This document shows positions 2,412 to 60,893 of a DNA stretch of 64,000 nucleotides, in pieces. Location: contig WRDW01000003.1 of NCBI GenBank assembly GCA_009779995.1, forward strand, positions 2,392 to 66,391, given 5' to 3'. Below the pieces are notes generated by a model that saw only the letters and a program-made list of their open reading frames with translations, did not search any database and was not told where the DNA came from. The DNA is from Oscillospiraceae bacterium. GTDB lineage: Bacteria; Bacillota; Clostridia; Oscillospirales; Acutalibacteraceae. The stretch's first letter is position 1, and every line of letters begins with the position of its first letter. Position numbers and translations under genes: made by a program.

Positions 2412-3902
2412 ATGCATTGTTCAGATCACACCCCAGACGATACCATCCAGCAGGAGGTCGGCGAATACGAGGTGCGCCTGCGGAAATACCAGGCCATAGC
2501 CGCGCGGGACGGCGTTGTGTGCAAGGACAAGTTCCAGCGCACGCATACAATCGCAGAAGCACAGAAGCTAGCCGAAGGTGAAGAAGTCGCGCTGTGTGGA
2601 AGAATCACAGCCTTGCGCTGGTTCGGCAAGCTCGTGTTCGGGAAACTATACGACGCGGGGGGCAGCATACAGTTTTCCCTTTCGAAAAACGAGCTGGACG
2701 AGGAGGCGTTCGCGTTTGTCAAGGCGAACGCGGACGTGGGCGACTATATTGGTATAAGCGGCGCGATGTACTATACCCAAAAGGGCGAGTTCACCCTCAA
2801 GGGCAGCCGGTGCGCGATCCTGAGCAAAGCGCTGCGCCCCCTGCCCGAGAAATTTCATGGAATTACGGACGTGGACAGAAAATTCCGGCAGCGCTATCTC
2901 GATGTCATTATGAACGAAAGCACCAGAAATACCCTGGCCATGCGCATCCAAATGCTGCGCTTCATCCGGAATTTCCTGGACGAAGCGGGCTTCGTGGAAG
3001 TGGAGACGCCCATCCTGCAAAACGTGGCCAGCGGCGCGGCGGCGCGGCCCTTCGTCACCAGGCACAACGCCCTGGACACAGAATTCTACCTGCGCATCGC
3101 GCCCGAACTATTTCTCAAGCAGGTGATCGCCTGCGGCTTCGACAAAGTGTTCGAGCTGGGCAAGAACTTCCGCAACGAGGGCATGGACGCCATGCACCTG
3201 CAGGAGTTCACCATGCTGGAGTGGTACGCCTCCTACTGGGACTTCAACGATAATATTGACTTCGTCACCAAAATGATACAGGGCATTTTGATGGAGCTGC
3301 GGGGCACGCTGCAAATCGAGTACCAGGGCGAGGCTCTGGATTTCTCGCGGCTGCGGCGCGTGGACTACATCGCCGAGTTGAACAAGATACTCGAAACCGA
3401 CATTCTCTCTTACGAGAGCGCGCAGGACCTGGCCAATCACATCATTCAAAAGAATATTTTTTGTGAAGAAGATCTGAAAGATTTAAAGTCCCTGCCGGCG
3501 ATTGTGGATTTCACTTTCAAGCGCAAGCTGCGGCCATCGCTGGTGCAGCCCTGCGTGACCTTCAACTATCCGGCCTTCCTGATCCCCCTCGCGCGGCGCA
3601 ATGACCTGAACCCCAAGGCCATCGACATGTTCCAGGTGGTGGTGTGCGGCGCGGAAATCGTGAAGGCCTATTCCGAGCTCGTGGACCCCATTTTGCAGCG
3701 CGGGGCCTTCGAGGAGCAGGTGCGCAACAAGTCCACCGGGGACGACGAGGCCTTCGACCTGGACGAGAGCTTCCTGCTGGCCATGGAACACGGAATGCCG
3801 CCCATGTCCGGCCTGGGCTTCGGCATTGACCGATTTATGTCCATCGTGGCCGACCAGCCCACACTGCGCGATGTAATCTTTTTCCCGCAGATGAAGGTGT
3901 AG
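2412..3902 (+). CDS. lysS: Lysine--tRNA ligase (class II)
   Basis: OB-fold GRI..LR.FGKL.F..L.D plus a class II core (FVEVETPILQ..GAAARPF, FRNEG..HLQEFTMLEWY, GLGFGIDR). Confidence 0.93.
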   Translation: MHCSDHTPDDTIQQEVGEYEVRLRKYQAIAARDGVVCKDKFQRTHTIAEAQKLAEGEEVALCGRITALRWFGKLVFGKLYDAGGSIQFSLSKNELDEEAFAFVKANADVGDYIGISGAMYYTQKGEFTLKGSRCAILSKALRPLPEKFHGITDVDRKFRQRYLDVIMNESTRNTLAMRIQMLRFIRNFLDEAGFVEVETPILQNVASGAAARPFVTRHNALDTEFYLRIAPELFLKQVIACGFDKVFELGKNFRNEGMDAMHLQEFTMLEWYASYWDFNDNIDFVTKMIQGILMELRGTLQIEYQGEALDFSRLRRVDYIAELNKILETDILSYESAQDLANHIIQKNIFCEEDLKDLKSLPAIVDFTFKRKLRPSLVQPCVTFNYPAFLIPLARRNDLNPKAIDMFQVVVCGAEIVKAYSELVDPILQRGAFEEQVRNKSTGDDEAFDLDESFLLAMEHGMPPMSGLGFGIDRFMSIVADQPTLRDVIFFPQMKV

Positions 3903-7280: not shown

Positions 7281-7315
7281 ATTGTGCATTGTGCATTGTG
7301 CATTGTAAATTGTGC
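7281..7315. repeat. Tandem heptamer tract (ATTGTGC)x5
   Basis: attgtgc attgtgc attgtgc attgtaa attgtgc, lying between the DUF1934 stop and the HAD-like start. Confidence 0.9.
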
Positions 7316-18550: not shown

Positions 18551-18585
18551 ATTGTGCATTGTACATTGTGCATTGTGCATTGTCA
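18551..18585. repeat. Tandem heptamer tract (ATTGTGC)x5, second copy
   Basis: attgtgc attgtac attgtgc attgtgc attgtca. The last unit supplies the TGA stop of the upstream 18583-19464 gene. Confidence 0.9.
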
Positions 18586-19763: not shown

Positions 19764-20110
19764 CAATCGAATAAAAACAAACCGATGAACAAGAGTAGTA
19801 TCCACGGAGACCACGCAAAGAGAGCCGCAGGCGGTGGGATTGCGGTCGTATAGGGACTGTGCGGGAATGGACTTGCGAGGGCGGGAAGAAAGGCGGCAGC
19901 GCTTCATGTGAAGCGGCGGCGCTCAGTAATGCCCGACGGGATTCGCCCGTGAAAGCGATAGCATGTAGACCACCCCAACGAATCTGCGGATTCGCCGGGG
20001 ACCCCGGAAGCATGTGACGAGAGACCGGCTTATGCCGGTAAATTGGGTGGCACCGCAGGAATACCCTGTCCCAATGGATCGTTTGATTCATTGGGGCAGT
20101 TTTATTTTGG
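19764..20110 (+). promoter_or_regulatory. T-box riboswitch with tryptophan (UGG) specifier
   Basis: Stem I has AGAGAG and GGUGGGA. The specifier loop is GAA-UGG-A (TGG at 19868-19870). T-box core AAUUGGGUGGCACCGC lies at 20041-20056. Terminator CTGTCCCAATG..CATTGGGGCAG plus TTTTATTTT. Confidence 0.85.
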
Positions 20111-20119
20111 TCGTTGTGT

Positions 20120-20146
20120 GCGGGCGGCAAGAATGCCGCCCCTACA
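20120..20146. repeat. REP-like 27-mer GCGGGCGGCAAGAATGCCGCCCCTACA
   Basis: Hairpin GGGCGGCA-agaa-TGCCGCCC. An identical 27-mer occurs at 37416-37442. Confidence 0.8.
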
Positions 20147-20184
20147 ATGAAATAAAAACAAAACTAGAAAAGGAGACCACAGCT

Positions 20185-26261: not shown

Positions 26262-26400
26262 CCGCCCTCGCGAGGACCCCCCCGGTTCAACGTCCCTTTG
26301 GGACGCTGAACCTCCCCCCTCGCAGGCGAGGGGGGAAGGCCGTCAGGCCGGGGGGGCCTCGCGAGGGGGATGGCGCGAAGCGCCGGGGGTGTCCTCGCGC
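26262..26400. repeat. Cluster of GC-rich REP-like palindromes
   Basis: GTTCAACGTCCC-tttg-GGACGCTGAAC, CCCCCCTCGCAGGCGAGGGGGG, CCTCGCGAGG. The same families recur at 34005-34200 and 50367-50500. Confidence 0.7.
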
Positions 26401-30125: not shown

Positions 30126-30215
30126 AATGCTTAATTCTTAATGCTTAATGCTTAATGAATGCGCGCCGCAGGCCGTTCCCCAATTAAGAATTAAGCATTC
30201 AGCATTGAGCATTTC
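30126..30215. repeat. Palindromic heptamer-repeat element (GCTTAAT family)
   Basis: aatgctt aattctt aatgctt aatgctt aatgaat, 21-nt loop, then the inverted units aattaag aattaag cattcag cattgag. The right arm encodes the last residues (CSMLNA) and the TAA stop of the dltA-like gene. Confidence 0.9.
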
Positions 30216-31705: not shown

Positions 31706-31716
31706 GATTCCCCCTT

Positions 31717-31818
31717 TATGCTTAATGCTTAATGCTTAATGCTTAATGCTGAATTGCCTTATCATGCGCCTGCTTTGCCTCAAATCATTAAGCATTAAGA
31801 ATTAAGCATTAAGAATTG
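31717..31818. repeat. Palindromic heptamer-repeat element (GCTTAAT family), second copy
   Basis: (T/A)ATGCTT x5, 28-nt loop, then inverted ATTAAGC/ATTAAGA x4. The right arm encodes the last residues (FLMLNS) and the TAA stop of the racemase. Confidence 0.9.
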
Positions 31819-34004: not shown

Positions 34005-34200
34005 CCCGGTTCAACGCTCGCGTGGACACCCCCCGGCGCTAACGGCTCCTGCGGAGCCGCGCGCCTCCCCCCTCGCAGGCGAGGGGGGCTTTAAACCTCT
34101 GCGCTGTACATAGCTTTTCGATAGAGCAATCCCCCTGCCCCCCTCGCGTGCGAGGGGGGTGGCCCGTTAGAGCCGGGGGGTGTCCACGCGAGGGGGGCAC
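34005..34200. repeat. Cluster of GC-rich REP-like palindromes
   Basis: CCCCCCTCGCAGGCGAGGGGGG, CCCCCCTCGCGTGCGAGGGGGG, GTGGACACCCCCCGGC / GCCGGGGGGTGTCCAC. Confidence 0.7.
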
Positions 34201-37415: not shown

Positions 37416-37442
37416 GCGGGCGGCAAGAATGCCGCCCCTACA
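37416..37442. repeat. REP-like 27-mer, identical to 20120-20146
   Basis: GCGGGCGGCAAGAATGCCGCCCCTACA. Confidence 0.8.
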
Positions 37443-37451
37443 GATACCCCT

Positions 37452-37480
37452 ATTCTACCACCTTTTTGTCCCCCTTGCAA
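37452..37480 (-). promoter_or_regulatory. Promoter of the PHP-ispE unit
   Basis: Minus strand: TTGCAA, 17 nt, TAGAAT. Back-to-back with the rnj promoter. Confidence 0.45.
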
Positions 37481-46347: not shown

Positions 46348-46447
46348 CCGCCCCTGAGTCGACAGCTCGGGCGGTTACTTCTCGTTTTTCAGCAATTATG
46401 AGGGGCAAGGGGAGCGGGCCGCCTGTTGGGCAACGCCACCCCTCATG
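46330..46447 (-). ncRNA. Candidate convergent antisense RNA (locus 2)
   Basis: Downstream of the minus-strand promoter at 46451-46479. Begins with hairpin ATGAGGGG..CCCCTCAT, then runs into the complement of the small-ORF terminator and 3' codons. 3' end not defined. Confidence 0.35.
46340..46389 (+). terminator. Terminator overlapping the last codons of the small ORF
   Basis: AGAAGTAACCGCCC-15 nt-GGGCGGTTACTTCT followed by CGTTTTT. Confidence 0.7.
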
Positions 46448-46450
46448 AAT

Positions 46451-46479
46451 AGTATAGCGCAAAACATTGCCCTTGTCAA
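46451..46479 (-). promoter_or_regulatory. Convergent antisense promoter (locus 2)
   Basis: Minus strand: TTGACA, 17 nt, TATACT. Confidence 0.55.
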
Positions 46480-46519
46480 GGGATTTTTTTATCATGCGAA
46501 AAGATAAGGAGAACTTCTC

Positions 46520-47842: not shown

Positions 47843-47906
47843 GGGTGGCATTCTTGCCACCCGGGCGGCAACAAAAAACGGGCGGCAAAAATGCCGCCCC
47901 TACAGG
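47838..47906. repeat. REP-like palindromes (GTAGGGG..GGCATTCTTGCC family)
   Basis: CTGTAGGGGTGGCATTCTTGCCACCCGGGCGGCAA..GGGCGGCAAAAATGCCGCCCCTACAG. Confidence 0.75.
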
Positions 47907-47918
47907 TTCTGCTATGCC

Positions 47919-50366: not shown

Positions 50367-50500
50367 GGGCATTCCCCAGCGACGGCCCCTTCGGGAGTCG
50401 CCGCATCCCCCCTCGCAAGCGAGGGGGGCTATTTGTGGCATTTTCGTAGATTGCGGATGAACCACGAAAAGCCCCCCTCGCTTGCGAGGGGGGGTCCATG
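50367..50500. repeat. Cluster of GC-rich REP-like palindromes
   Basis: CCCCCCTCGCAAGCGAGGGGGG and CCCCCCTCGCTTGCGAGGGGGGG. Confidence 0.7.
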
Positions 50501-51700: not shown

Positions 51701-51792
51701 CGGGTGGCATGAATGCCGCCTCTACAGCCTCTGCTAGCCGAAACACGCCCCACTTTCGCAATCCTGCAGGGGCGGCATTCTTGCCGCCCGGG
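51701..51792. repeat. REP-like palindromes (GGCATGAATGCC / GGCATTCTTGCC family)
   Basis: GGGTGGCATGAATGCCGCCTCTACAG .. CTGCAGGGGCGGCATTCTTGCCGCCCGG. Confidence 0.7.
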
Positions 51793-55554: not shown

Positions 55555-56738
55555 GCGATTTTACCTCCCAGGCGCTGATAGTCTTCCCAAAACGCGGGAT
55601 ATGATTTTTGCACAGCCTGCGCCCCATGCAGCGTAATTGGGTTTTCGCAGCGCAGCGCGGCGACGGCCATCGCCATGGCGATTCTGTGATCGCCGAAGCT
55701 GTCGGCACCGCCGCCTTGCAGGGTTGGCTTGCCTTGAATCACGAGGCCGTCGGGCAGCTCCGTCACGTCCCCGCCCAGGGCGTTGAGATTTTCTGCAATA
55801 GCGTGCAATCTGTCGCTCTCTTTCAGGCGCAGGCGCGCGGCGTTGGCGATCCTGCCTTCGCCGGGCGTGAGGGCCATGACTACCGCCATAATCGGCGCCA
55901 AGTCGGTGTACTGGGAGGCGTCCATCACGCCGCGATGCTCCAGCAGCGATGTGATTGCCCGGTCAGATTGTTCTGAAGCCCCGTCGAGCCCGGTGATACG
56001 AATATCGCTCCCCAAGGCATTTGCCGCCAGCCAAAAGGCCGCGCTGGACCAGTCCGCCTCAATTGACAATTGGCAGTTGACAGTTGACAATTGATATTTT
56101 TGCCCGCCGGGCACCGCAAAGCCCTGCTCCGTCTCATGTATCACAATGCCGAACTTGCGCAGGGTGCGCAGGGTCATTTGCACATAGCCCGCGGATTCCA
56201 GCGGTGAGGTAAGAATGATTTCGCTTTCCCCGATCAGCAGGGGCAGCGCGAACAGCAGGCCCGTGACGTACTGCGATGTGATGTCCCCAGGCAGGGCAAA
56301 AATGCCGGGCCGGAGCTGGCCGGAGATTGCGATGGGCAGGCGTTCGCTGTCTATAGAGCAGCCGTGGGCGCGCAGGAGATCAACCAGGGGCTGCATGGGG
56401 CGCGCGGGCAGGCGGCCCGTGCCGGTGAACGTGACGCTCTTACCCAGCGCGGCGAAAACCGGCAGCAGGAAGCGCAGGGTGGAGCCGCTTTCGCGGCAAT
56501 TCAATCTTAAACAGGGGTCTGTCAAGCCCCCCTCCGCCAGAGGGGGGAGCCCGAAGGGCGGGGGGTGTGATGCGGCCAGGCATTCCCTCGTCGCCTCAAT
56601 GTCGTCCGAGATCACCGGCAGGCTTTCGAGGCCCATCCCCGCGAGGTGCGCGGCAATCATCAGGCGGTGCAGTTCATATTTTGAGGGCATGGCCGCAATT
56701 TCGCCGGATAGTCTGCCGGGCTTCAGCGTGAGTGTCAT
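55551..56738 (-). CDS. aroA: 3-phosphoshikimate 1-carboxyvinyltransferase (EPSP synthase)
   Basis: MTLTLKPGRLSGEI..PSK...R.., ESGSTLRFLLP, RLKESDR, GDHRIAMA. Start at 56738 (ATGA overlap with aroB). The upstream part of the 553-aa ORF overlaps aroB. Confidence 0.9.
   Translation of the reverse strand: MTLTLKPGRLSGEIAAMPSKYELHRLMIAAHLAGMGLESLPVISDDIEATRECLAASHPPPFGLPPLAEGGLTDPCLRLNCRESGSTLRFLLPVFAALGKSVTFTGTGRLPARPMQPLVDLLRAHGCSIDSERLPIAISGQLRPGIFALPGDITSQYVTGLLFALPLLIGESEIILTSPLESAGYVQMTLRTLRKFGIVIHETEQGFAVPGGQKYQLSTVNCQLSIEADWSSAAFWLAANALGSDIRITGLDGASEQSDRAITSLLEHRGVMDASQYTDLAPIMAVVMALTPGEGRIANAARLRLKESDRLHAIAENLNALGGDVTELPDGLVIQGKPTLQGGGADSFGDHRIAMAMAVAALRCENPITLHGAQAVQKSYPAFWEDYQRLGGKIA
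56061..56095. repeat. Heptamer tract (A[AG]TTGAC family) x5 inside aroA
   Basis: aattgac aattggc agttgac agttgac aattgat, translated in frame as YQLSTVNCQLSIE. Confidence 0.9.
56537..56576. repeat. GC-rich REP-like hairpin inside aroA
   Basis: CCCCCCTC-cgccag-AGGGGGG plus AGCCCGAAGGGCGGGGGG, translated as ..PPPFGLPPLAEGGL.. Confidence 0.7.
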
Positions 56739-60501: not shown

Positions 60502-60591
60502 GGGGTTCTCCTTTGTTTTTTCTGGGTTTATTATATACCGGGGAGCGGGGGGCAAGGTGGAAAAAGCGAAAAAGCGAGGCGAAAAAAACGC

Positions 60592-60620
60592 TTGACATTA
60601 AGTTCAAAATGGTATATAAT
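60592..60620 (+). promoter_or_regulatory. Convergent antisense promoter (locus 3)
   Basis: TTGACA, 17 nt, TATAAT. Confidence 0.55.
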
Positions 60621-60626
60621 ACAGGC

Positions 60627-60740
60627 GAGGGGCAGTGCCGCGTAGAGCAGACAGCCTTCTCAACCCTCGCCTAAAATGAATGTGAGAAGTAACCGACCGA
60701 GCGTACCAGGCTGGGGGCGGTTACTTCTTATTACCACGGA
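60627..60740 (+). ncRNA. Candidate convergent antisense RNA (locus 3)
   Basis: Begins with hairpin GGCGAGGGG..CCCTCGCC, then AGAAGTAACCG..CGGTTACTTCT, which is complementary to the 3' codons and hairpin of the small ORF. 3' end not defined. Confidence 0.35.
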
Positions 60741-60801
60741 TAGTCATGAGATACCCTGTCGCGATCACGAGGAAAGCTAAAATGTACATCTCAAGAGCCA
60801 T
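60721..60801 (-). CDS. Candidate 26-aa hydrophobic peptide (type I toxin-like), paralog of 46261-46347
   Basis: SD AAAGGAGGTGAG, then ATG. MALEMYILAFLVIATGYLMTIRGNKK. The stop lies in hairpin AGAAGTAACCGCCC..GGTCGGTTACTTCT. Confidence 0.5.
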   Translation of the reverse strand: MALEMYILAFLVIATGYLMTIRGNKK

Positions 60802-60864
60802 GTATACTCACCTCCTTTCGAAGGCGAGAGGAAGATAACCGCCGCTGCGCGCGGCACCGACACC

Positions 60865-60893
60865 ATTATACAACGCTCTCGCGAATATTGCAA
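60865..60893 (-). promoter_or_regulatory. Promoter of the small-ORF transcript (locus 3)
   Basis: Minus strand: TTGCAA, 17 nt, TG-TATAAT, the same hexamers as locus 2. Confidence 0.55.

What the first reader, a model, noticed from the sequence alone, without database searches (positions are those of the whole stretch)
60592..60893. Second, paralogous copy of the small-peptide/antisense module (copy B), with conserved leader and hairpin architecture
On the minus strand the same promoter hexamers (TTGCAA-17-TGTATAAT, 60865-60893) precede a leader. That leader shares GCAGCGGCGGTT..CTyCCTC..CyTCGAAAGGrGGTGAG with copy A. The 26-codon ORF encodes MALEMYILAFLVIATGYLMTIRGNKK, which has 12 consecutive residues identical to copy A. 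The stop again lies in a long hairpin (AGAAGTAACCG..CGGTTACTTCT). A convergent TTGACA-17-TATAAT promoter (60592-60620) again fires toward the ORF 3' end, and again its RNA starts with a private hairpin (GGCGAGGGG..CCCTCGCC). Both units, the leader motif and the hairpin overlapping the stop codon are conserved while flanking sequence has diverged. That argues for a selected two-RNA module rather than chance ORFs.
Basis: seen in the sequence. Interest (0 to 1): 0.65.

Follow-up and report, generated by a model that had tools for sequence, protein, structure and literature searches.

The report
Toxin-like peptide gene with antisense RNA
This is a roughly 320-base cassette that encodes a 26-residue membrane-type peptide on a tightly folded mRNA, faced by a strong antisense promoter; it is conserved in about 40 places in termite-gut bacteria and is most likely an uncatalogued family of a well-known kind of system, the RNA-controlled (type I) toxin-antitoxin module.

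Summary
A metagenome scan and a genome scan found 38 further copies in unrelated contexts. One locus is from a termite-gut Oscillospiraceae MAG. The 26-codon ORF is under purifying selection (pN/pS 0.12; third-position entropy 0.82 against 0.22 and 0.10). The Shine-Dalgarno sequence sits in a 9-bp GAAA-capped hairpin that stays paired in 97% of cells. The antisense promoter (TTGACA-17-TATAAT type) is kept in 35 of 35 copies.

New here: the sense RNA probably does not end at the hairpin over the stop codon. It runs about 280 nt to a second terminator that overlaps the antisense -35. Its first 20 nt pair with the 3' UTR, with compensatory changes in 6 of 9 pairs. G.U against A.C counts (48 to 4) place this helix on the sense strand. 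The antisense RNA is complementary to the 3' arm of that helix.

Best reading: a new family of type I toxin-antitoxin-like modules (confidence 0.7). Toxicity and both transcripts are untested. Pfam, NCBIfam, PHROGs and Rfam gave no significant match; plasmid and phage records gave no relevant one. A third, divergent module lies at 42.9-43.25 kb. Interest is moderate.

The parts
60865..60893 (-). Sense promoter of copy B: TTGCAA (60893-60888), 17-nt spacer, TATAAT (60870-60865)
   Evidence: The same hexamers and spacing occur in copy A and in nearly all related loci.
60841..60858 (-). 5' end of the sense RNA (GGUGCCGCGCGCAGCGGC). It is the 5' arm of the long-range closing helix and holds the conserved leader GCAGCGGCGG
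   Evidence: It starts 7 nt after the -10 box. RNAalifold and pair counts give 6 of 9 pairs with compensatory changes and 95.8-97.9% of cells paired. The per-sequence pairing probability has a median of 0.99.
60807..60828 (-). SD-occluding hairpin CUCGCCUUC-GAAA-GGAGGUGAG. The Shine-Dalgarno sequence is its 3' arm
   Evidence: 96.7% of cells paired, 1 compensatory pair and 6 pairs with one-sided changes. G.U outnumbers A.C by 56 to 4, which places the hairpin on the sense strand.
60721..60801 (-). 26-codon ORF plus TAA stop, encoding MALEMYILAFLVIATGYLMTIRGNKK: one hydrophobic helix-length segment and a basic C-terminus
   Evidence: Purifying selection across 29 distinct homologues, with pN/pS 0.12. 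The best 17-residue hydropathy window scores 2.05.
60685..60728 (-). Hairpin over the last two Lys codons and the stop codon (AGAAGUAACCG...CGGUUACUUCU). It is a likely bidirectional, leaky terminator, with an A-rich 5' side and a U-rich 3' side on both strands
   Evidence: It is nearly invariant in 24 to 34 copies. Its terminator role is inferred.
60634..60655 (-). 3' UTR segment GCUGUCUGCUCUACGCGGCACU. It is the 3' arm of the closing helix that pairs with the mRNA 5' end
60624..60671 (.). Local hairpin GGCGAGGG...CCCUCGCC. On the plus strand it is the 5' stem-loop of the predicted antisense RNA
   Evidence: Covariation is modest and shows no strand preference, with G.U against A.C at 7 to 7.
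60592..60620 (+). Antisense promoter TTGACA-17-TATAAT (12 of 12)
   Evidence: It is conserved in 35 of 35 related copies.
60627..60738 (+). Predicted antisense RNA of about 112-120 nt. It is complementary to the mRNA 3' UTR and to the last codons of the ORF
   Evidence: Both ends are inferred from the promoter and the hairpin. No transcript has been observed.
60582..60600 (-). T-run, preceded here by only a weak stem, that overlaps the antisense -35. In most homologues this position holds a clear sense-strand intrinsic terminator
   Evidence: hairpin plus U-run of -7.5 to -14.4 kcal/mol in 18 of 24 copies, with compensatory stem variants. In copy B it is only -4.6 kcal/mol.
46171..46490 (+). 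Copy A of the same family: promoter 46171-46199, ORF 46261-46347, antisense promoter 46479-46451 on the minus strand, terminator 46470-46490
42945..43248 (+). Third, divergent module (copy C). Its ORF 42989-43081 encodes MWEIVGVVLQATSIIVALVELFLYLRDHRK. A hairpin follows the stop codon. The antisense promoter TTGACA-17-TATAAT lies at 43227-43199 on the minus strand, followed by a T-run
   Evidence: nhmmer gave a partial hit with E = 0.0012. The fold has a z-score of -5.6.

Best explanation
Copy B belongs to a previously uncatalogued family of type I toxin-antitoxin-like modules found in termite-gut Oscillospiraceae.

The sense promoter makes an mRNA for a 26-residue hydrophobic peptide with a basic C-terminus. 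Such peptides typically insert into the membrane, and this one is presumed harmful when over-made.

The mRNA is held off in two ways. First, the Shine-Dalgarno sequence is locked in a local 9-bp hairpin with a GAAA loop. Second, the first 20 nt of the transcript pair with a segment of the 3' UTR about 200 nt downstream. This closes the molecule and buries its 5' end.

The hairpin over the stop codon probably terminates part of the transcription in both directions. The rest of the sense transcription continues to a second terminator that overlaps the antisense -35.

A near-consensus convergent promoter inside the 3' UTR makes an antisense RNA of about 115 nt, built from a 5' stem-loop and a terminator hairpin. 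This RNA is fully complementary to the 3' UTR, including the 3' arm of the closing helix.

Its binding would form a long duplex and release the mRNA 5' end. I infer that this leads to RNase III-type cleavage and decay while the SD stays closed, as in the 3'-overlapping systems of Bacillus.

Shown here: the ORF is under protein-level selection, the SD hairpin and the 5'-3' helix are conserved with covariation, both promoters are conserved, and the module is multi-copy and lies in varied contexts. Inferred: both transcripts and their ends, peptide toxicity, and the way the antisense RNA acts.
For: 1. Copies. There are 2 full copies and 1 divergent module in the 64-kb window. Another 38 copies lie on other contigs, in many unrelated gene contexts and in both orientations relative to neighbours.
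2. Coding selection. Third-position entropy is 0.815 against 0.22 and 0.10 at the first two positions. Pooled pN/pS is 0.12. Codon 2 varies synonymously, so translation starts at M1.
3. Peptide type. There is one hydrophobic stretch of 17-19 residues and a C-terminal R-G-N-K-K.
4. SD hairpin. It is 96.7% paired, and every change is compatible with pairing.
5. The 5'-3' helix. Six of 9 pairs carry compensatory changes. The covariation score is reached by 0 of 500 shuffles. Sliding the partner drops pairing from 95% to 43-55%. Arm haplotypes are matched, for example GGUAUCGCG with CGCGAUACC and GGCGCUGCG with CGCAGCGCC. Single-sequence partition functions recover the helix with a median probability of 0.99. 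G.U against A.C is 48 to 4, so the helix forms on the sense strand.
6. Antisense promoter. The hexamers and 17-nt spacing are kept in 35 of 35 copies, including copies whose ORF is broken.
7. Antisense RNA. A two-hairpin shape is conserved.
8. Sense terminator. It overlaps the antisense -35 and has compensatory stem variants.
9. Literature. 3'-side antisense RNAs, toxin mRNAs of 150-400 nt, SD sequestration and 5'-3' long-distance interactions are all described for type I systems (PMC8594479, PMC3834814, PMC6733600).
Against: No transcript data exist for either strand. Peptide toxicity is untested. There is no sequence similarity to any known type I toxin or antitoxin family.

Predicted SD accessibility is low in every modelled state, with a median unpaired probability of 0.11 for the free full-length mRNA and 0.01 for the short or antisense-bound form. 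How the peptide is ever translated is therefore unexplained.

The hairpin over the stop codon is invariant, so its structure has no covariation support. In copy B itself the second terminator is weak.

Twelve loci sit directly upstream of sugar-use genes on the same strand. This leaves room for a cis-regulatory role.
Confidence: 0.7

Rival explanations
1. It is an ordinary small membrane protein gene, for example an accessory subunit or a regulator of a membrane complex. Its expression is tuned by a structured mRNA and a cis-antisense RNA, and the peptide is not a toxin.
For: The peptide sequence is unusually conserved for a type I toxin: FLVIATGY is invariant and pN/pS is 0.12. This could reflect a specific binding partner. 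No toxicity data exist. All the RNA features fit this reading equally well.
Against: The module has several copies per genome and lies in many unrelated contexts with no constant neighbour gene. Some copies have a broken ORF but keep the antisense promoter. The double lock on translation and the near-consensus antisense promoter are the usual hallmarks of type I systems (PMC8594479, PMC6733600).
Confidence: 0.17
2. It is a portable cis-regulatory cassette, that is a promoter with a translated leader and an attenuator, which controls the downstream gene. A ribosome reaching the stop codon inside the hairpin would melt this first terminator and allow read-through.
For: The stop codon always lies in the 5' arm of the terminator-like hairpin. 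Twelve loci lie just upstream of, and on the same strand as, xylose isomerase-like, L-fucose isomerase-like or GH5 genes. Those upstream of the fucose isomerase-like gene, together with L006 and L017, lack the second terminator. Copy B sits 80 nt upstream of a GH5 gene and has only a weak second terminator.
Against: Many copies are followed by a convergent gene and have a strong terminator of their own. Leader peptides of attenuators are not normally conserved as a hydrophobic helix across their whole length. An attenuator does not need a conserved convergent promoter. No Rfam cis-regulatory family matches.
Confidence: 0.1
3. It is a non-functional dispersed repeat or miniature mobile element, and its ORF and promoters are accidental.
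For: It is dispersed and multi-copy, with sharp borders of homology. One copy, L001, is flanked by a 42-nt direct repeat.
Against: There is codon-level purifying selection, there are compensatory changes in RNA helices, and flanking repeats are absent in the other 25 loci tested.
Confidence: 0.03

Closest known systems
3'-overlapping type I systems of Bacillus subtilis (bsrG/SR4, txpA/RatA, bsrE/SR5, yonT/SR6)
   Same: These systems occur in Firmicutes and encode a small hydrophobic toxin. A convergent antisense RNA lies on the 3' side of the toxin mRNA and overlaps the end of the ORF (PMC8594479). In bsrG the SD sits in a double-stranded region, and the first contact involves the antitoxin terminator loop (PMC3834814).
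   Different: There is no sequence similarity in peptide or RNA. Here the antisense RNA appears to lie wholly inside a long 3' UTR. The mRNA is closed by a 5'-3' helix whose 3' arm is part of the antisense target. The SD is already locked in a 9-bp hairpin without the antisense RNA.
hok/Sok and aapA/IsoA (mRNAs controlled by a 5'-3' long-distance interaction)
   Same: The full-length toxin mRNA is folded by pairing between its 5' and 3' ends. A local hairpin masks the SD through a CU-rich anti-SD. There are several copies per chromosome (PMC6733600).
   Different: Those systems are from Gram-negative bacteria. In them the long-distance interaction itself carries the anti-SD, and the antisense RNA pairs with the 5' part or the ORF. 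Here the long-range helix involves the extreme 5' end and not the SD, and the antisense RNA targets the 3' UTR. There is no sequence similarity.
fst/RNAII (par) of Enterococcus
   Same: Toxin mRNA and antitoxin RNA are transcribed convergently towards a shared terminator, and the peptide is a roughly 30-residue hydrophobic one (from my own knowledge and PMC8594479).
   Different: In par, the RNAs interact through direct DNA repeats at their 5' ends, outside the overlap. Here the repeat is inverted and gives pairing within one molecule. There is no Fst-family or Rfam match.
SprA1/SprA1as of Staphylococcus aureus
   Same: The peptide has about 30 residues with a basic C-terminus, and the antisense RNA overlaps the 3' end (PMC8594479).
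   Different: SprA1as acts through its non-overlapping 5' domain on the ribosome-binding site. Here a CU-rich stretch in the antisense 5' hairpin could in principle do the same, but I did not test this. There is no homology.
Type I systems of Clostridioides difficile
   Same: These are chromosomal type I modules in Clostridia (PMC5961336; title and abstract only).
   Different: From memory, those toxins have about 50 residues and the loci are tied to CRISPR arrays or prophages. No similarity was detected here, and no CRISPR or phage context was seen.

Membership tests
Type I toxin-antitoxin system (the kind) | A small ORF, usually under 60 codons, that encodes a hydrophobic peptide | tested here: met
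   26 codons, best hydropathy window 2.05, under purifying selection.
Type I toxin-antitoxin system (the kind) | An antisense RNA gene whose product is complementary to the toxin mRNA | tested here: inconclusive
   A 12 of 12 consensus convergent promoter is kept in 35 of 35 copies, and the predicted RNA shape is conserved. The transcript itself has not been observed.
Type I toxin-antitoxin system (the kind) | Toxin translation is held off by mRNA structure (SD sequestration) | tested here: met
   A 9-bp SD hairpin is 96.7% paired with pairing-compatible changes, and the SD unpaired probability has a median of 0.11 or less.
Type I toxin-antitoxin system (the kind) | The peptide is toxic when expressed, and the RNA neutralises it | not testable with these tools
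   This needs expression experiments.
BsrG/SR4, TxpA/RatA, BsrE, YonT families | Sequence homology of the toxin or of the antitoxin RNA | tested here: not met
   Pfam and NCBIfam gave 0 hits at E up to 10. Rfam gave no relevant hit at E up to 5.
BsrG/SR4, TxpA/RatA, BsrE, YonT families | The antisense RNA lies on the 3' side and overlaps the 3' end of the ORF | tested here: met
   The promoter position and the shared hairpin place the predicted antisense 3' end over the last codons.
Hok/Sok and AapA/IsoA | A 5'-3' long-distance interaction in the full-length toxin mRNA | tested here: met
   Six of 9 pairs are compensatory, and the median pairing probability is 0.99.
Hok/Sok and AapA/IsoA | The long-distance interaction supplies the anti-SD, and the antisense RNA pairs with the 5' region or the ORF | tested here: not met
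   The anti-SD is local and upstream. The long-range helix uses nt 1-20. The antisense RNA covers the 3' UTR.
Fst/RNAII (par) | An Fst-family peptide, and direct repeats that make the two 5' ends complementary | tested here: not met
   There is no Pfam hit. The repeat between the 5' end and the 3' UTR is inverted, not direct.

The most novel reading that the evidence does not exclude
These modules may form a superfamily in termite-gut Oscillospiraceae, comprising this family plus divergent relatives such as copy C and the second module of L028. In it the antitoxin RNA would lie entirely inside the toxin mRNA's 3' UTR. It would act by prising open a 5'-3' closing helix, exposing the buried 5' end to 5'-dependent RNases rather than blocking the ribosome-binding site. 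In addition, translation through the stop codon inside the leaky bidirectional terminator would decide whether the short or the long (closed) mRNA is made. At some loci that choice would also couple the cassette to expression of the downstream sugar-use gene.
Probability: 0.15. Interest if true: 0.65.

Novelty: new member of a known kind. Interest (0 to 1): 0.45.

Why it matters
Type I toxin-antitoxin families are hard to find by homology, and almost all known ones come from a few cultured model species.

This one comes from uncultured termite-gut Clostridia. It also comes with unusually clear comparative evidence: about 40 natural variants define the ORF, the SD lock, a 5'-3' closing helix and the antisense promoter.

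It combines two features usually seen in separate lineages. One is the 3'-side antisense RNA of Gram-positive systems. The other is the 5'-3' closed mRNA of hok and aapA.

It is therefore a ready-made test case for how an antisense RNA bound to a 3' UTR can control a toxin mRNA. It also adds a family that annotation pipelines currently miss, because the ORF is shorter than most gene callers report.

Tried and rejected
- Protein homology search. The 26-residue peptide is below the tool's 40-residue minimum. The 47-codon upstream-extended ORF of copy A found nothing.
- Family libraries. Pfam, NCBIfam and PHROGs gave no significant family; the best PHROGs E-value was 0.045, for a family of unknown function.
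- Rfam at E up to 5. Only sub-threshold microRNA-like hits on unrelated palindromes appeared, plus a 28-bit Bp1_684 hit over the neighbouring terminator. I judged all of these to be chance.
- Viral contig scans with the invariant 17-mer and with the leader pattern gave 0 hits.
- Plasmid and phage BLAST gave nothing relevant. The module is not evidently plasmid- or phage-borne.
- The GTDB species scan gave only one locus, so the family is rare among sequenced species.
- Mobile-element test. Flanking direct or inverted repeats were found only in L001 (42 nt) and not in the other 25 loci.
- Look-up of the GH5 neighbour returned only the same genome, so no presence/absence comparison was possible.
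- I considered that the antisense RNA might change SD accessibility. Predicted accessibility is low in all states and differs only slightly between them, at 0.11 against 0.01, so I do not rely on it.
- I considered that the closing helix might form on a long antisense transcript. I rejected this because of the G.U against A.C asymmetry.

Full report
**1. Observation.**

- The sense promoter TTGCAA-17-TATAAT lies at 60893..60865.
- The convergent plus-strand promoter TTGACA-17-TATAAT (12 of 12) lies at 60592..60620. The scan found 3 promoter-like sites in 800 nt against 0.3 expected from shuffles.
- The ORF 60801..60721 encodes MALEMYILAFLVIATGYLMTIRGNKK.
- Its stop codon lies in the 5' arm of the hairpin 60728..60685.
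- The plus-strand RNA would begin with the hairpin GGCGAGGG..CCCUCGCC.

Copy A lies at 46171-46490 on the plus strand and has the same plan.
- The motif TCGAAAGGRGGTGAG occurs only in these two places, against 0.19 expected.
- The two peptides share YILAFLVIATGY.
- The modules are 72% identical from the -35 box to the T-run.
- Their 200-nt flanks are 57% identical, which equals the shuffled level.

In the shared peptide block, 9 of 11 identical residues use different codons in the two copies (read). This was the first sign of selection on the protein.

**2. Relatives.**

- Protein databases could not be used, because the peptide is too short and is not called as a gene.
- A back-translated scan of one genome per GTDB species found one locus, L001. 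It comes from an Oscillospiraceae MAG, isolate Gsp477_bin18. Gsp477 bins come from the termite Glyptotermes (PMC11707648).
- The same kind of scan of JGI metagenomes found 37 loci, L003-L039. From memory, and unverified, those sample series are termite-gut metagenomes.
- All 38 loci carry the whole module.
- The consensus peptide is MG[IF]E[MF]Y[IL]L[AV]FLVIATGYLM[TVA]IRG[NS]KK.
- Homology ends at the -35 box on one side and at a T-run on the other. The neighbouring genes differ from locus to locus.
- A profile of the module finds exactly two full copies in the window, plus one weak partial hit.

**3. The ORF is a real gene.**

- The test used 29 distinct 26-codon sequences.
- Mean column entropy is 0.22, 0.10 and 0.815 at codon positions 1, 2 and 3. 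Pooled pN/pS is 0.12.
- Codon 2 (Gly) uses all four synonymous codons, so translation begins at the first ATG. That start is GTG in 3 copies and TTG in L001.
- The peptide has one hydrophobic stretch of helix length, MYILAFLVIATGYLMTI, with mean hydropathy 2.05. It ends in R-G-N-K-K.
- The last two codons and the TAA stop hardly vary even at synonymous sites. They lie inside the hairpin.

**4. RNA structure of the sense strand.**

I aligned 24 complete units from 7 nt after the -10 box to the T-run (A4). RNAalifold and an explicit pair count gave these results.

(a) The SD hairpin.
- Its sequence is CUCGCCUUC-GAAA-GGAGGUGAG, and the SD is its 3' arm.
- It is 96.7% paired. One pair switches between U-A and C-G in 8 sequences. 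Six other pairs change on one side only, in ways that keep pairing.

(b) A long-range helix between the first 20 nt of the transcript and a 3' UTR segment about 200 nt downstream (columns 1-20 with 233-255).
- The outer 9 pairs have compensatory changes in 6 pairs and are 95.8% paired.
- The inner 8 pairs, where the conserved leader GCAGCGGC pairs with GCCGUCUG, are 97.9% paired.
- Matched arm haplotypes include GGUAUCGCG with CGCGAUACC, GGCGCUGCG with CGCAGCGCC, and GGUAUUGCG with CGCAAUACC.
- For the whole structure (47 pairs), none of 500 shuffles reaches the observed covariation score. Sliding the 3' partner by 1-3 columns drops pairing from 95% to 43-55%.
- Single-sequence partition functions predict the helix with a median probability of 0.99.
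- G.U pairs outnumber A.C mismatches by 48 to 4 in this helix and by 56 to 4 in the SD hairpin. These helices therefore form in the sense RNA, not in a long antisense RNA.

(c) The hairpin over the stop codon.
- It is nearly invariant: 9 of 14 pairs never vary. It is conserved as sequence, and covariation says nothing about it.
- It is A-rich on its 5' side and U-rich on its 3' side on both strands. It therefore looks like a bidirectional terminator with a weak U-tract. This is inference.

(d) A second, sense-strand terminator overlapping the antisense -35.
- Eighteen of 24 units have a clear hairpin followed by five or more U, at -7.5 to -14.4 kcal/mol.
- The stems differ in a compensatory way: CCGCUU/AAGCGG, UCGCUU/AAGCGA, CCACUU/AAGUGG, CCUCUUG/CAAGAGG and GCCCUUG/CAAGGGC.

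The long-range helix needs both arms on one RNA. The functional sense transcript is therefore about 275-285 nt long and extends beyond the hairpin over the stop codon. In copy B itself this second terminator is weak (-4.6 kcal/mol), although the T-run is present.

**5. The antisense side.**

- In all 35 copies that include this region, the -35 hexamer and a TATAAT-like -10 lie 17 nt apart. The -35 is TTGACA in 33 copies and TTGACT or TTGACG in one each. The spacer sequence varies.
- This holds even for copies whose ORF is damaged. L028 and L039 have TAA changed to CAA. L034 has a repeat inserted in the leader and a frameshifted C-terminus. L029 has lost the SD hairpin.
- The predicted RNA has about 112-125 nt. 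Its conserved shape is a 5' stem-loop and the shared hairpin, with a few compensatory changes at the base of the 5' stem.
- It is complementary to the mRNA 3' UTR, including the 3' arm of the closing helix, and to the last codons of the ORF.
- No conserved ORF lies on that strand.

**6. Mechanism.**

The anatomy is that of a type I toxin-antitoxin module with a 3'-side antisense RNA, the arrangement described for Gram-positive families (PMC8594479).

Shown:
- a selected hydrophobic mini-protein;
- an SD lock;
- a closed 5'-3' mRNA;
- a conserved strong convergent promoter.

Inferred:
- The closed 5' end protects the mRNA.
- The antisense RNA pairs with the 3' UTR, perhaps starting loop-to-loop at the shared hairpin, as SR4 does with bsrG (PMC3834814).
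- This pairing displaces the 5' end and creates a long duplex that is cut by RNase III, so the mRNA decays.

Predicted SD accessibility is low in all modelled states. The median unpaired probability is 0.11 in the free full-length mRNA. It is 0.01 when the mRNA is truncated at the first hairpin or when the antisense site is blocked. The direction fits a small extra translational effect of the antisense RNA, but the difference is too small to rely on. How translation is ever switched on is unexplained. An activating processing step, as in hok and aapA (PMC6733600), is one possibility.

**7. Rivals.**

- A non-toxic small membrane protein under antisense control fits all the RNA evidence and cannot be excluded without experiments. 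Against it stand the copy number, the scattered contexts and the decayed copies.
- A translated-leader attenuator for the downstream gene has some support. The stop codon always lies in the first hairpin. Twelve loci lie upstream of, and on the same strand as, xylose isomerase-like, fucose isomerase-like or GH5 genes. Copy A precedes a xylose isomerase-like gene and copy B precedes a GH5 gene. Several of these loci lack the second terminator.
- Against the attenuator reading, many other copies face a convergent gene and end in a strong terminator. An attenuator also needs neither a conserved hydrophobic peptide nor a convergent promoter.
- A dead repeat is excluded by the selection and covariation results.

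**8. Comparison with known systems.**

- No known family matches by sequence: Pfam, NCBIfam, PHROGs and Rfam. Plasmid and phage records gave no relevant match. A full-text search for type I toxin-antitoxin together with termite found nothing relevant.
- In gene layout it works like bsrG/SR4 and txpA/RatA.
- In mRNA folding it works like hok and aapA. It differs because the long-range helix holds the extreme 5' end rather than the SD, and because the antisense target includes that helix.
- It is not a member of any of those families.

**9. Verdict.**

The added result is that the mRNA is longer than assumed and is closed by a covarying 5'-3' helix. I file it as a new member (family) of a known kind. 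Interest is moderate. The comparative evidence is strong and the layout has a twist, but new type I families are not in themselves surprising, and nothing here has been shown experimentally.

Noticed in passing
window 42945-43248 (+): A third, divergent module with the same plan. Its SD is GGGGGGUGA. Its ORF 42989-43081 encodes MWEIVGVVLQATSIIVALVELFLYLRDHRK. A long hairpin follows the stop codon. It has a CCGTCTC motif, the antisense promoter TTGACA-17-TATAAT (12 of 12) at 43227-43199, and a T-run. I found no clear sense promoter. The fold has a z-score of -5.6.
   Followed up: partly
L028 1-190: A second, divergent module lies 2.3 kb from the main copy. It has a hairpin over the end of a different ORF, CCGTCTCC, ATTATA-17-TGTCAA and a T-run. 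This suggests a wider superfamily with swapped peptides.
   Followed up: no
window 7281-7315, 18551-18583, 30126-30157, 31714-31754, 31786-31817, 56060-56094, 62832-62889, 62910-62941: Tandem arrays of 7-nt units (ATTGTGC, AATGCTT/CTTAATG, CAATTGA, AGTTGAC, ACTGTCA) with 4.6 to 8.3 copies occur at eight places. The 100%-identical AGTTGAC x8.3 array lies inside the recG-like ORF 61964-63997 (-), where it encodes repeated QLSTVNC.
   Followed up: no
window 19970-20007 and 43325-43362; L034 1668-1688: A 38-nt palindromic repeat (CCACCCCAACGAATCTGCGGATTCG.CGGGGACCCCGG) occurs twice in the window at 97% identity. It also occurs, inverted, inside the leader of the decayed module of L034. It may be a small intergenic repeat or mobile element.
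   Followed up: partly
L001 about 2819-2868 and about 3218-3268: The module of the Glyptotermes MAG is flanked by direct repeats of about 50 nt, with 42 nt identical, that contain a terminator-like hairpin. None of the other 25 loci tested has flanking repeats.
   Followed up: partly
L003, L005, L022 versus L014: The same upstream gene (a 187-192 residue protein starting MPK..FPVL.TERL.LRQ) is followed by the module and then a xylose isomerase-like gene in three loci. In L014 it is followed by the module and then a fucose isomerase-like gene. This is consistent with recombination between module copies.
   Followed up: no
L028, L029, L034, L039: These are decayed copies. L028 and L039 have the stop codon changed to CAA. 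L034 has a frameshifted C-terminus and a leader insertion. L029 has a leader insertion and has lost the SD hairpin. All keep the antisense promoter.
   Followed up: partly
window 26294-26335, 34047-34088, 50387-50493; 20121-20157, 37417-37453, 47879-47915, 51701-51737: Two families of repeated GC-rich hairpins recur in the window: CCCCCCTCGCAGGCGAGGGGGG and CGGGCGGCAAGAATGCCGCCCCTACA. They are probably shared terminator-type or REP-like elements. The first gave the sub-threshold microRNA-like Rfam hits.
   Followed up: no
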